Source: Amoebidium appalachense
Taxonomy: Eukaryota > Protista > Ichthyosporea
DNA: 64,000 nt
NCBI GenBank assembly: GCA_963693365.1
Contig: CAVNZM010000012.1
Span: 248,001-312,000, forward strand
Reading direction: 5' to 3'
The notes under the pieces are model-generated. The model had not been told where the DNA came from, did no database searches, and saw only the letters and a list, made by a program, of their open reading frames with translations. This document shows positions 16,601-58,800 of the stretch, one piece after another. How positions within the stretch are numbered: position 1 is the first letter of the stretch; every line of letters starts with the position of its first letter. A program made the translations under genes and the position numbers.

Positions 16601-19600
16601 GGATGATGACGTACTACTGATCGACTATGAGAGTGATGTGGATGCACAACACGTGTCAAGGTACATTGCACACCTTCCCCCCTCTCCCCTCGCCTCTCTC
16701 TCTCTCTCTCTCCCCCCCCCCCCCCCCCCCCCCCCCCTTCCCCCCCCTTTTTTTCCCGGGTATGATACTGTGGATGACTTGGGTCCCCCCTGAGGATGGC
16801 TCTGCTTGTCGGGCATGCTTTTTGTGTGGTCAGCACTCTGCATTGTGTTATCCGTTCTGGATGTGTACGTCGTACTCTATAAGGCCTCTTAACTGACCCC
16901 CCCCCCCCCCCCCCCCCCCCCCCCTCTTCCCTCGTCTTCCCTCCGCTTGTTCCCCCGTATAACATAAGCATGTATGGAGATGTGAAGGCATGTGTGGGTT
17001 TTTGGCCGGGTTTAAAAAAACAAGGGAACAAGGGAAGGAGATGAGGCAGAGGAGCGGGGGAAAGTGGGGAAGGAGAGGTTTTTTTTTTGTTTTTTTTTTG
17101 AGACTTTGTATGTCTATATGTGGGATGACACTTTGTATGGGCTGCAGTTCGGAAGATGAGGAGACACCTATGGCCAAGCAACAGGAAGAACCACAGTGCC
17201 TGAAGGTGGGGAAAGGGGTTGATGGGCGGGTGCTTTGGTGGGTGTGTGTGTGTGTGTGTGTGTGTGTGTGTGTGTGTGTGTGTGTGTGTGTGTCCTTTGT
17301 ACTGTGTGCACATGGGCCTATGTGTGCCGACGGTGGACGTGTGCATCTGTGCATGTTGGGTGTAAAAGAACCGAATGTGTCTGCAATGCTTCGGTGTATG
17401 CCAGCCTCCCCCCCCACACCACCACCACAACCTCTTACTTATCTGTAACCTCCACCACCCCCCCCACTCCACCACCCTACCACCATGCACCCACACCACC
17501 ACCCCCTCTTCCAGGTCATTTTCAGCAGTCGTACCCATTCCCAGCTGTCTCAATTCGTCGAGGAGTTAAAAAAGAGCCCATACGGTAACATCCCCCCCCC
17601 CCCCCCCCCCTCCCCCCCCCTCTCCCCCCCCCCCCCCCCCCCCCCCCCGCCCATACACACACACACACACACACACACACACACACACACACACACACAC
17701 ACACATACACACACACACAGGCCCACACATGCAACACATGCAACACGCACACAACACTGACCCAAAAACACACACACACACCACGTACACAGGCACATAT
17801 ACGCCCACGTGTGTGTGCATATGCCCTGTCGGCATAATTCGGCCCCCACACCCAGCATTTCCTTTCGTCCCCACCGCCCTACCCCCTTCTTCCCGCCTCT
17901 TCCCATCAGCATGCACCGACATATTGTTCTGTGGATGGTTCGTTTTGCACGCTGTGTCTACTTGCGCGATAGGGTTCAGGGGTTGGAATGGTAGGGAGGT
18001 GACTGGCGGTGTGCAGGACACAACAATTGCAAAGCTTGTTAGTGGTGTTGTCTTTGATTGGGGGAGGGCCTGTTTGGATCGTGGTACGAATATGTGGGTG
18101 GGTAGATGGGTAAATAGGGTTTTCTTTTTGGTGTCTTATTTCCTCCTCTCACTTCTTCTGCTCTTCTTCTTCTTCTTTTTTTTTTTTTTTTTTTTTTTTT
18201 TTGGGGGGGGGGGGGGGGGGGGGGGGGGGGGGGGATCTTTACTTTTTCCTTTTTTTTTGGGGGGGGGGGGGGCGGGGGGCGGGGGGGGGGGGGGGGGGGA
18301 AGGGGGGGGGGGTTATACCTGCAAATTGGGCAATGGCAGGGTGAACATTAGGAACACGAGGTAAGCGTGGATACTAACCAGGGTATCATCACACACATGC
18401 ATGCACACGATGATGAAGACGTGCACACGTGTCATACAAATGTGTGTGCGCACACACACACATACACACACATACACACACACACACACACACACACACA
18501 CACACACACACACACACACACACACACACACACACACACACACACACACACACACACACAGGGCAGGGTGTGCGTCTTGCAGTGCTTGCATCACGGCAGC
18601 ACATGTGCATCAATCCCGCTGTTTTGGCCCTCAAGAGCAGCCAGCGCATTAATGAAACATGTCTGGACTTGAAGGAGCAGAAGAGTAGGTGCCCTCCTAT
18701 TACATGCATGCAATTAGTTGAAACTATGCATAGTTTCATACACATGTGATGATGGGTGTGCGGATGTGGTGAAACCTTCCACATACACATGTTGTACCTG
18801 CATGTGCATATGCATATGGAGGTGTTGACAAAGACCAAACACACGCACATACACCGCACCGTCAAACCCAACTCCCACACGCAGAGGCACACCTCCTTCC
18901 ACCCATCCTTTACCTTTTCTTCTTTTCTTTTTGCTTTCTCCTTCCGTTATCTTAACTATCTCCCCCTCCCCACCGCCATCCTCACACCCACCCACCCTCC
19001 CCGGTTCTATGTAGGCCACGTTGATTCGCCTGATGTCACGAATCCTTGCGTCCTACATGTGTATAGATGCTTGTGCCATATTGGGACACCTATATAACCT
19101 CTTCGGGCCGGCACTAATTGATTTGGCCGGCAGCCGGCAAGCGCTAAACAGCTCTTAACAGCTCCATTGCGGCTCAAAATCGATAGAAAAAGCTCAAATA
19201 AATTGTAAATATCGACACAAACATGTCTTACCTGCATGGGTTTCTAAGTTGATTTGGGGGAAATGTCACTATATAATATACTTTTGTATCTGTTTCTGTG
19301 TTTCTGAAATGACTATCTAGGGAGATTTGCCGGTATGAACAGGATAAGGGGTAGCCTCCCACCATAGGAGTGTGTCCCTGGCAGCAATAAACACACTTAA
19401 TGCTGATGTTTGTGCAGGGAAGGGTAAGAAGGGAGCAAAGGGCTGCCCTTTTCTGGTGCCAAAGTTGGTGCGCACCCTGGCTGACCAGGCAATGGTGAGT
19501 GTGCGTGTAAATGCTCACCCTTGGAAAAACCTGGTGTATGTGTAAATGCTCACCTTTGGAAGACCGTATGTGTAAATGCTGACCCTTGAATGTGTCACCC

Positions 19601-55809: not shown

Positions 55810-58800
55810 CTACACGGACATGGACATATTGTCGTCGTCTTGGTTGCTGGGCACGTTGATCACCGCCTCAGAGTCATCATCCACTTCTTCCGTCACACCC
55901 TGCACACACACAGTCAACACTGGGTCACCCTTTGTGACACATACATGGAAGAATAACTATCAGAACCAAACCAGTTTCCATAACCGCACCTGCCTGAAAT
56001 TCGACTTTTCAAACCAAAATGTCTTCAAAACATTGACAACAAAAGTCTCTGAGCGTGTAAGTCGGACATGCTCAAAATCCAACGACATACGCAAGGAATT
56101 TTAACAAGCCTGCGGAAAGAGGGGGATAGAGGTGTGTGTGTGTGTGGGGGCGGGGGGGGGGGGGGGGGGGGGGGGGGGGGGGGAAGAGGGGGGAGGGGGT
56201 GTTTAGAGGAGGAACGGGGGAGGGGGGGGGGGGGGGGGGGGAGCAAACCTTGACTGAGCGTGGTGCTGCAGGGCTCTTTTTTGTGACCGACCCGCTGGTT
56301 GCCGCCCTGCCATGCAACCAGTGATGAGTGAGATGCACGTTCGCGCATGCTGCACTTATGCGTGCATACTGCCTTTAGTGGGTGCCCATACATGGGCGGC
56401 AGGGGGGGGGGGGGGGGGGGAGGGGGATGTATGCAATAGAGGGCTTCAATGTGAAGAAAGTAGACACTAAAAGACAATACACACCACGTCACAAAAACCC
56501 GATATCAAGGGGGGGAAACACGTACGTATTTCTGTGCTGCAGCTCTATCTCCGACTGTGGTGTTGTCAGTAGCTGGTCTGTTGTGGCGCTAGTGGGTAGA
56601 TCCAGGGCACCAGAGGGAGGCACTGGGGCAGGGGCAGGGCGGATGGACATGTAGAGGGGCTGGGCACTGCTGATGATGGGCACACAGTGGTAGCGCACAC
56701 CGTTGATCTCGTGCACCTGCCCACACACACGTGAGTGCCTGGCTTAGGCTAGCTGCCCGTCCACACGTGCGTGTGCACTTGTGCAGCTGCGCATATGCTG
56801 TCATGTGTGCACACACTGCCACGGCCGAATATGGATTCTTTAACAAAATGATGTCACGGTCGTTATACACGTGTTTAAGGATAACTGCCCCCCCCCCCCC
56901 CCCCCCCCCCCCCACTCCCCCATACTCATATTCCCCTCCTGCCCCCGGAGTGTCCCCTCCCCTCACACATGCAGGCGCAGGGATATCCACTCATCACCAC
57001 CCACCACATGCACACGAATCCAGAACATACAAGTGCACGAACGTGTGCACACATGCACGAGACATGCACACACACACACACACACACACACACACCCGCC
57101 CACCCACACACGCACACACACACACACACACACACACACACACACACACACACACACACACACACACACACACACACACACCTCTGCGCCCTCCGCAACC
57201 TCATCCTCCGCTCCTACGGCCTGCTTTGCGACACTCAGCTGCAGCAGGGAGTGGAAGGGTGCCCTGCATATGGGGCACTTTGCCGCCTGATTTCTAAGCA
57301 CCTGTGCACATGCAGCACACAGGCACAGGTGTCGACAGGGCAGAACCAACGTGTCCCTGTGGTCACTCATGCACACCACACACGTGCGGTTCTCATCTTC
57401 ATCATCGCTGTCTGCATCATCCCCCCCTGTGTGCGGGACCTCCTCCATGCCGTATATTTCCTGCAGCATGTAGCTGCTCCCGTACACCTGCACAAACACG
57501 TGTCAGGCACGTGCACACACCACACCATGCCCCACACACAACACCATGCCCCGTGCACGTAATCAGTTGATGCACGTGTACCATGAGAATAACAGCACAC
57601 CAGTTTTTTCTTCTATACCACATGCACGTGTGGGTGTGTGTATGCGGCTCGCCTTTGCACAAGGACCAGTCACCCAAAACACATGCAGAACTCCCGCACA
57701 GCCACAAGAAATGGGTCCTCTAACAGAGTTCAGACGCACACCCCCACTCCAACAAGGCAGGCAGGCAGGCAGGCAGGCAGGCACGTACGGTGATCTTCTG
57801 CTTGAGCACGGAGGGCACGTATGCCGTTGGGCCGGATTCCTCGAAGGACACCAGGGTGGCCTGTGCCTGCGCCGGTGCCGCACCTGCACACACACGTCAC
57901 TCCATGCACACCGGCAAATCTCCTGATGCGTGCTAACCGTACTGTTCCCAGCTCTTGCCCCCCCCCCCCCCCCCCCCCCCCCCCCCCCCCCCCCCCCCCC
58001 TCCTCCTCCTCCCAAAGAAAAAAAAAAAAAAAAAAAAAAAGAGCACCGTAGGTCATCTCTCCATCGGGACTGTGTGCCCCATCCCTCCACATCCAATAGA
58101 CACGGTCAAGCACATCCCCTATGCTGCTCCTCCAAAGCGACTCCACAAACACCACACTCACTATTTGCACAGCCCTGGCTCACCTGGTGCCGTGGGCCTC
58201 GCCTCGATGAGGATGACCAGTGGTATGCGGCCTTTACCCCCGTATCTGCGATCCTGTTCAGCCAGCAGTGACAGATCCAGCGTCCAGTCATGAGTGAAGG
58301 CAACACCACAGCCGGCATCAAACGGGTAGCTGGGTGAGCAGGTGCTGCCCTGGTAGCTGCACGGAGAGGGGGGGGGGGGGGGGGTTCAGAATGTGTTACA
58401 GTTACAGAGTACATAAGTATGCATTCATGACGGACAACACAAGGCAGAGTGCAAACCACACAAAGATATGCATAATAAGCAGGGCCCATCCTCCCCGGCG
58501 GCGCGGGGATGGGGGGGGGGGGTTATTCGTTCACGACGGACAACACAACACAACACATATAGAGTATGGATTACAAGCCGAGCCCACCGGTGGGTCTGCG
58601 GGGAGACCGAAGTACATCCATTATCGCTAGCACGAGACACGCACTGCACACACCACACCAACCGACCATAGTACACAGCATACAAACACGGCACCTACCC
58701 CGACGGGCCATTATCCTCCACGGCCCCCATCATCAATGTGACATTACACGGCTGCAGCGCATCAAAAGCAAACTCTACCCGATATAACATGTGTCTGGGT

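What the first reader, a model, noticed from the sequence alone, without database searches (positions are those of the whole stretch)
16770..58590. Unrecognised ~130-bp element family embedded in poly-C tracts, sense-oriented in introns of three different genes
Seen: homologous copies at 16770-16897 (+, DDX11), 46786-46909 (-, TRIP11), 58385-58493 and partial 58523-58590 (-, MGRN1). A and B differ by two substitutions and one gap over the first 39 nt (GTGGATGACYTGGGYCCCCCCTGAGGATGG[G]CTCTGCTT). B and C match at 26 of 27 nt in GAGGATGGGCYCTGCTTATTATGCATA, and all four share TGTGTTRTCCGT or a near match. Every copy runs into a C homopolymer at its 3' end on the host sense strand, and A, B and C also have a C tract upstream. 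I see no TIRs, poly-A tail, tRNA A/B boxes or ORF. Inference: (i) a mobile element that targets or seeds poly-C/poly-G tracts, possibly a poly-C-tailed retroelement that would help explain the homopolymer load; or (ii) an intron-encoded ncRNA family (GGATGA near the 5' end of A and B and terminal CTGA in A and C loosely resemble C/D boxes). With three independent loci, shared orientation has a 1-in-4 chance of being coincidence.
Basis: partly seen in the sequence, partly recalled or inferred. Interest (0 to 1): 0.8.

Follow-up and report, generated by a model that had tools for sequence, protein, structure and literature searches.

The report
Poly-C-anchored SINE-like retroposon family
The four intron repeats are copies of a short non-coding element, apparently present in thousands of copies in a single-celled relative of animals, that ends in and sits inside runs of C and likely spreads by reverse transcription like a SINE, an ordinary kind of parasite with an unusual poly-C anchor.

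Summary
The repeat is real: four copies (65-77% pairwise identity) lie in sense orientation in introns of DDX11, TRIP11-like and MGRN1 genes of a unicellular holozoan, each ending at a C run. Laying public assembly contigs on copy B drew 4,370 and 3,059 distinct contigs in two DNA runs, which points to at least a few thousand copies. Other copies share the same 3' end followed by C's. Many are 5'-truncated at different points directly against a C run, and some are head-to-tail. This is the anatomy of a non-autonomous retroposon that inserts into, and primes on, C/G runs. The family extends at least 26 nt 5' of the window copies with a GGTCGAAAC motif. That motif fits a tRNA-type B box or the 3' half of a hammerhead ribozyme; I could not decide between them. 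The snoRNA idea is not supported. Intronic, sense placement is what C-run targeting gives by chance (about 0.5 and 0.14). Only 8 of 151 C/G runs touch a copy, so the family does not explain the homopolymer load. No partner reverse transcriptase and no empty site were found.

The parts
16757..16896 (+). Copy A, in a DDX11 intron (16661-17147). It keeps 6 nt of the family's 5' extension (16757-16762) and then a 5-nt insertion before the body.
16712..16747 (+). Interrupted C run upstream of A
16897..16924 (+). C28 run at the 3' end of A
46786..46910 (-). Copy B, in a TRIP11/GMAP-210-like intron (46373-47315). It resembles abundant genome-wide variants closely and lacks the 5' extension.
46911..46948 (-). 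C38 run (element sense) upstream of B
46757..46785 (-). Interrupted C run at the 3' end of B
58385..58502 (-). Copy C, with a truncated or diverged 5' part, at the 3' end of an MGRN1 intron
58368..58384 (-). C17 run at the 3' end of C. It ends 9 nt before the acceptor AG and is the pyrimidine tract nearest the used 3' splice site.
58511..58522 (-). C12 run between D and C (tail of D, upstream run of C)
58523..58619 (-). Copy D, old and degenerate, lacking the terminal ~30 nt; head-to-tail with C
   Evidence: leave-one-out E 2.5e-8
58357..58698 (-). 342-nt MGRN1 intron holding D and C, shown to be spliced out

Best explanation
This is a short, non-coding interspersed repeat, apparently high-copy, with a fixed 3' end at a C run, and it likely spreads as a SINE-like non-autonomous retroposon copied by another element's reverse transcriptase. 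Shown: many related contigs, a shared 3' end followed by C's, variable 5' truncation points joined directly to C runs, and head-to-tail copies separated by C runs. Inferred: the RNA carries a 3' stem-loop (an 8-bp complement read from two majority lines) and a C tract. A LINE-type enzyme would bind the stem-loop, the C tract would pair with the G strand of a nicked C/G run, and reverse transcription would start there and often stop early. The insertion would split the run, leaving C's on both sides and hiding any target duplication. The 5' extension seen in other copies (GGTCGAAAC) is most likely a tRNA-type B box of a Pol III head, which the four window copies have mostly or wholly lost. The window copies are dead passengers spliced out with their introns.
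For: (copy B laid): 4,370 contigs in X1 and 3,059 in X9. Summed depth peaks at 9.1e5 and 1.05e6 against single-copy 7.8 and 15.9. The tool warns this is no copy number; dividing by the 31-fold maximum overlap of contigs gives rough floors of about 3,750 and 2,100. Fixed 3' end: 37 (X1) and 54 (X9) loose ends share a majority line ending TTCTAA plus C's; 98 and 128 contigs run through B's C run and on. 5' truncation against C runs: 9 of 15 joints shown (17 in all) and 6 of 12 inserts shown (23 in all); 11 of 12 shown (144 in all). Head-to-tail: 3 of the 15 joints, and D+C in the window. Near-identical variants are common: 1,486 of 4,370 X1 contigs are 99% or more alike to B over the part laid. 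5' extension: 66 (X1), 95 (X9), 6 (X8) and 1 (X15) contigs, with a second subfamily in 47, 32, 3 and 1 contigs; both keep GGTCGAAACTC. That matches the Rfam tRNA T-loop consensus at 9 of 12, and the X1 line matches human initiator tRNA at 14 of 17 ungapped (sequence in PMC8216282; compared by eye). No ORF in the copies; no reverse transcriptase or transposase domain among 123 of 277 filtered window frames scanned. 3' stem-loops with repeat tails are typical of stringent LINE/SINE pairs (PMC3747384), and microsatellite-targeting LINEs are known (PMC3812793).
Against: No partner LINE, no A box, no target-site duplication and no empty site were seen. D and the 5' part of C are present at the same intron in run X9, which carries another organism label. 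The B box has G at position 54, where T or A is usual. The 14/17 tRNA match is not significant once about 60 candidate RNAs and both strands are allowed (p about 0.1). The four majority lines disagree beyond about 26 nt upstream, so a full tRNA head is not seen. None of the 4 window copies has the head, which is unusual for a short SINE. D lacks the terminal stem-loop. Summed depth over B's 5' half is no lower than over its 3' half, so truncation within the 125 nt affects a minority of copies. The (C)n target precedent I found in print is for Penelope-like Chlamys elements, not LINEs.
Confidence: 0.6

Rival explanations
1. A non-autonomous Penelope-like element or retrozyme. The 5' extension is the 3' half of a minimal type I hammerhead. 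Self-cleavage would release the RNA from a host or read-through transcript, and a Penelope-type enzyme would insert it into (C)n.
For: Subfamily 1 reads C-GAAA-C-N4-G-U-A exactly (chance about 7e-4 to 5e-3), and one X15 contig has a palindromic TCGA loop, as described for Penelope hammerheads (PMC4209133). B begins within 1 nt of the predicted cut. Chlamys elements insert into (CA)n and (C)n and have non-autonomous head-to-tail forms (PMC8557442).
Against: Subfamily 2 (47 and 32 contigs) has no G-U-H at that place. The CUGANGA half and helix I lie beyond the 30 letters shown, and helix II pairing appears in only 1 of 4 majority lines. None of the 23 joints shown changes strand, whereas inverted copies are typical of these elements. 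X15 contigs run across the predicted cut. Most Chlamys lack canonical hammerheads.
Confidence: 0.2
2. A non-autonomous rolling-circle (Helitron-like) or other DNA element that prefers C runs.
For: The majority 3' end is a hairpin followed by CTAA, which fits CTRR. Microsatellite-targeting helitrons exist (MINE-1, PMC3812793).
Against: The hairpin abuts CTAA with no spacer of about 10 nt, the site is C|C and not A|T (Helitron features recalled), 5' ends vary widely, and no terminal inverted repeats are seen.
Confidence: 0.12
3. A functional intron-encoded RNA family (C/D snoRNA-like).
For: All 4 copies are sense-oriented in introns. B folds into a cloverleaf closed by a 7-bp helix.
Against: Thousands of related contigs with truncations; no Rfam match; boxes do not conform; no significant fold and an unfavourable covariation term, with 3 of 30 pairs changed on both sides; orientation and intron placement are as expected by chance.
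Confidence: 0.04

Closest known systems
tRNA-derived SINEs (SINE2) paired with stringent-type LINEs, such as the UnaL2 system (PMC3747384)
   Same: Short, non-coding, dispersed, B-box-like motif 5', predicted 3' stem-loop, simple-repeat tail, 5'-truncated copies.
   Different: The tail and flank are (C)n, not poly(A), TAA or TGTAA. No A box, full tRNA head or LINE partner has been shown.
Chlamys Penelope-like elements and non-autonomous MRC1 of Chlamydomonas (PMC8557442)
   Same: Insertion bias to (C)n that hides target duplications, frequent 5' truncation, head-to-tail copies.
   Different: Reported from green algae, spike mosses and slime moulds. No inverted copies among the joints shown here, no pseudo-LTR shown, and a much shorter element.
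Non-LTR retrozymes and minimal Penelope hammerheads (PMC4209133; bioRxiv 10.64898/2026.07.22.740005)
   Same: Short non-coding repeats with GAAA-C-N4-GUH and a palindromic loop; many dispersed monomers.
   Different: Only the 3' half of the motif is visible, it is absent in subfamily 2, no regular tandem arrays were seen, and there is a fixed C-run end.
Microsatellite-targeting LINEs Waldo, Mino, Kibi, Koshi, Dong (PMC3812793)
   Same: Insert into pre-existing simple repeats and leave repeat on both sides.
   Different: Those are autonomous and target ACAY, AC, TC, TTC or TAA repeats; none listed targets a C homopolymer.
5S-derived SINE3 (PMC10886601, PMC5063351)
   Same: The spacing GAA + 7 + 1 + 9 nt equals that at the 3' end of the Rfam 5S consensus.
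   Different: The conserved helix IV/box C residues are not matched, so it is not filed here.

Membership tests
SINE (tRNA-derived) | Short and non-coding | tested here: met
   97-140 nt in the window, at least about 150 nt with the extension; no ORF
SINE (tRNA-derived) | Many dispersed copies | tested here: met
   4,370 and 3,059 contigs laid; 3 unrelated host genes
SINE (tRNA-derived) | Fixed 3' end with simple-repeat tail, variable 5' ends | tested here: met
   Loose ends and joints; D is an exception at its 3' end
SINE (tRNA-derived) | Pol III head with A and B boxes and tRNA homology | tested here: inconclusive
   B-box-like 9 of 12, 14 of 17 to initiator tRNA (p about 0.1 after multiple tests); A-box region not visible; ARAGORN 0 in the window
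SINE (tRNA-derived) | 3' end shared with an autonomous LINE | not testable with these tools
   No genome held; no RT domain in 123 window frames scanned
SINE (tRNA-derived) | Target-site duplication | tested here: inconclusive
   Both flanks are C runs, which would hide it
Non-autonomous Penelope-like element / retrozyme | Complete type I hammerhead | tested here: inconclusive
   3' half exact in subfamily 1, absent in subfamily 2, 5' half beyond view; no Rfam hammerhead in the window
Non-autonomous Penelope-like element / retrozyme | Tandem pseudo-LTR plus inverted truncated copies | tested here: inconclusive
   3 of 15 joints head-to-tail; 0 of 23 shown change strand
Non-autonomous Penelope-like element / retrozyme | Microsatellite, (C)n insertion bias (Chlamys) | tested here: met
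Non-autonomous Penelope-like element / retrozyme | End shared with a GIY-YIG/RT element | not testable with these tools
   No genome held
SINE3 (5S-derived) | 5S box C / helix IV conserved | tested here: not met
   Loose-end lines compared by eye with the RF00001 consensus: only loop GUGA and GAA agree
C/D box snoRNA | RUGAUGA C box, terminal CUGA D box, family match | tested here: not met
   GGATGA in A and B; majority end TTCTAA; Rfam
Helitron (non-autonomous) | 3' hairpin about 10 nt before CTRR, 5' TC, A|T site | tested here: not met
   CTAA present, but the hairpin abuts it, the site is C|C and 5' ends vary; features recalled
MITE | Terminal inverted repeats and fixed-length target duplication | tested here: not met
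   None by inspection of the alignment

The most novel reading that the evidence does not exclude
A promoterless, intron-riding retroposon: a hammerhead at its 5' end cuts it out of host pre-mRNA, its C tract primes reverse transcription on G runs, and its CTAAC/CTGAC end plus C tail delivers a ready-made branch point and pyrimidine tract to thousands of introns of an animal relative, as copy C's tail appears to do at the MGRN1 acceptor.
Probability: 0.12. Interest if true: 0.72.

Novelty: new variant of a known kind. Interest (0 to 1): 0.42.

Why it matters
Retroposon tails and priming are usually A-rich or short tandem repeats. A family anchored on C homopolymers would give a natural test of whether RNA-tail to target-strand pairing, rather than endonuclease preference, directs insertion, and would point to a reverse transcriptase that inserts into C/G runs. 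My searches found no paper combining SINE, poly-C, retrotransposon, insertion and protist or hammerhead ribozyme, Ichthyosporea and retrotransposon, and no SINE family was described in the passages I saw on unicellular holozoan repeats. Repbase and Dfam could not be searched, so it may already sit there as an unclassified repeat. It is not a new gene class, and the window copies have no shown function.

Tried and rejected
Rfam: 0 matches at gathering score in the window; only chance-level matches around the copies (E 0.5 or worse). ARAGORN: 0. The 23-nt core gave 1 match in metagenome contigs (L001, inside an apparent bacterial ORF with no further similarity, taken as chance), 0 in viral contigs and 0 in prokaryote genomes. 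The 5' extension motif gave 0 in viral contigs. A gapped body motif gave 6 viral loci, 0 of 6 with a tRNA, so the by-eye likeness of B's 5' body to initiator tRNA got no independent support. No whole genome is held, so no genome-wide strand bias, boundary or partner search was possible. Expression: no RNA holder listed. X8 and X15 are one sample, are RNA by guess and are contigs; they hold element contigs (63 and 8) but cannot show ends, strand or level, so a discrete RNA is neither shown nor excluded. One 898-nt X15 contig ends in the element with about 790 nt upstream that I could not read; it may be a 3' UTR or a longer partner. The internal CTGAGGA was considered as a hammerhead core and rejected: it has no following GAAA and lies in a predicted hairpin. 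The 5S reading was rejected on box C. A look-alike between the stretch upstream of B and 11500-11540 did not appear in the masked self-comparison. Five look-ups in earlier scan findings returned nothing.
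Full report
Observation. A profile from A, B and C recovers D at E 2.5e-8 and finds no fifth copy better than E 0.3; pairwise identities are 65-77%. 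All four end at a C run, and A, B and C have one upstream.

Host. The window is microsatellite-rich, with 72 C runs and 79 G runs of 8 nt or more. Pfam supports CBP/p300, a DEAD_2 helicase (DDX11), a GRAB-domain coiled-coil protein (TRIP11-like, below the curated cut-off) and a RING protein (MGRN1). The MGRN1 exon is 100% identical to an unnamed transcriptome protein, P0002. The next hits include Capsaspora by name and gene prefixes that I recall as Chromosphaera, Creolimax and Sphaerothecum. The host is therefore a unicellular holozoan, probably an ichthyosporean; no call names it. No whole genome is held. The intron holding D and C is spliced out (P0002 against the window; 342-nt joint in X8 and X15). 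The introns of A and B are inferred from GT..AG ends and frame.

Copy number. I laid contigs of four public runs (at most three samples and two studies; X1 may be the window's own source) on the MGRN1 stretch and on copy B. On B, 4,370 contigs of X1 and 3,059 of X9 fit at 80% or better; 1,486 of the X1 contigs are 99% or more alike over the part laid. Summed depth peaks near 9.1e5 and 1.05e6, against 7.8 and 15.9 for unique sequence. The tool states that this is no copy number. Allowing the maximum 31-fold overlap of short contigs gives rough floors of about 3,750 and 2,100 copies. One copy per 16 kb in the window fits that order or somewhat more.

Ends. The 3' end is fixed: 37 and 54 loose ends share a majority line ending TTCTAA plus C's, and 98 and 128 contigs run through B's C run and continue. 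Two majority lines hold an 8-bp complement (GAATGTGT/ACACATTC) just before that end, which I read by eye as a terminal stem-loop. 5' ends vary: 9 of 15 joints shown (17 in all), 6 of 12 inserts shown there (23 in all) and 11 of 12 shown (144 in all) join an internal point of the element to an upstream C run. These rows were found because the reference had a C run, so they do not give the share of such copies. Three joints are head-to-tail, three are internal deletions, and none of the 23 joints shown in the two calls changes strand. Against a simple picture: depth over B's 5' half is no lower than over its 3' half, and D lacks the terminal stem-loop. D and part of C are present at the same intron in X9, so no empty site was seen.

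The 5' extension. Beyond B's first base, 66, 95, 6 and 1 contigs (X1, X9, X8, X15) continue with one sequence, and 47, 32, 3 and 1 with a second. Both keep GGTCGAAACTC at the same distance from the body and differ in the 10 nt between. The majority lines agree for about 26 nt and then diverge; only 30 letters are shown. Copy A keeps 6 nt of this extension. I weighed three readings. (a) Pol III B box: 9 of 12 to the Rfam tRNA T-loop and 14 of 17 to human initiator tRNA (by eye), which is p about 0.1 after multiple tests; it fits both subfamilies. (b) 3' half of a minimal hammerhead: exact in subfamily 1, with a palindromic loop in one X15 contig and B starting at the predicted cut, but missing in subfamily 2 and with its other half out of view. 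(c) 3' end of 5S rRNA: the spacing fits the RF00001 consensus but box C does not; rejected.

Mechanism. Fixed 3' end, repeat tail, variable 5' truncation, no ORF and no terminal repeats are the marks of target-primed reverse transcription of a non-autonomous element (established knowledge; PMC3747384). C runs on both sides, even of truncated copies, suggest insertion into existing runs, with the RNA's C tract pairing to the G strand; this is inferred. I put 0.6 on a SINE-like element with a LINE-type partner, 0.2 on a Penelope-type or retrozyme form, 0.12 on a rolling-circle or other DNA element, and 0.04 on a functional intronic RNA. The first two share the core reading, a retroposon anchored on C runs.

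What does not hold. Orientation and location are not special: 122 of 151 C/G runs lie in gene spans and 64 of the 122 are C on the sense strand, so three intronic loci has a chance of about 0.5 and three sense loci about 0.14. Only 8 of 151 runs touch a copy, so the family follows the homopolymers and does not account for them. There is no Rfam or tRNA match, no significant fold and no favourable covariation among three copies. Expression as a discrete RNA could not be tested.

Literature seen. PMC8557442: passages and sections 10 and 15. PMC4209133: parts 1-2 of 4. bioRxiv 10.64898/2026.07.22.740005: parts 1-2 of 5. PMC11244446, on a repeat-rich ichthyosporean genome: passages, section 6 and a text search of both supplements, with no use of SINE or Penelope; its figure S2 and repeat library were not visible and may bear on novelty. 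PMC3747384, PMC10886601, PMC5063351, PMC4007536, PMC5560861, PMC8216282, PMC9212997 and PMC11065635: passages only. PMC3812793: passages and section 5 part 1. Searches with no paper holding all terms. Helitron, C/D box and hammerhead core definitions are recalled.

Verdict. A real, apparently high-copy retroposon-like family with an unusual poly-C anchor: a new variant of a known kind. Its head, partner enzyme and RNA remain to be read from the assembly. Interest 0.42.

Noticed in passing
window 40676-41514: An 839-bp intergenic element with perfect 14-bp terminal inverted repeats (CAGGGATGTGTCGG) and an exact 8-bp target duplication (CTTCTGTA): a MITE of hAT-like type by recalled features.
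   Followed up: partly
window 58357-58395 (-): Copy C's C17 tail ends 9 nt before the used acceptor AG. The family's majority end plus the first C reads CTAAC, and A's reads CTGAC, both like a branch point; C itself has CTGAAC. Possible reuse in splicing, untested.
   Followed up: partly
window 28690-29920: About 1.2 kb of minisatellite built from 11- and 19-bp units in a DDX11 intron.
   Followed up: no
window 27876-28172: Minisatellite of about 30-37-bp units starting at a DDX11 splice donor.
   Followed up: no
window 1-8760 (-): CBP/p300 gene with TAZ, KIX and atypical RING domains.
   Followed up: partly
run X15, record 11 / record 16: An 898-nt contig that ends in a diverged head-bearing copy with about 790 nt of unread upstream sequence: a host 3' UTR or a longer form of the element.
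   Followed up: no
whole window: C/G runs of 8 nt or more (151) far outnumber A/T runs (31), the reverse of the usual eukaryotic pattern; the cause is unexplained.
   Followed up: partly
window 36700-39000 (-): Exon-like GT..AG-bounded pieces suggest a further spliced gene with no Pfam match among the frames scanned.
   Followed up: no
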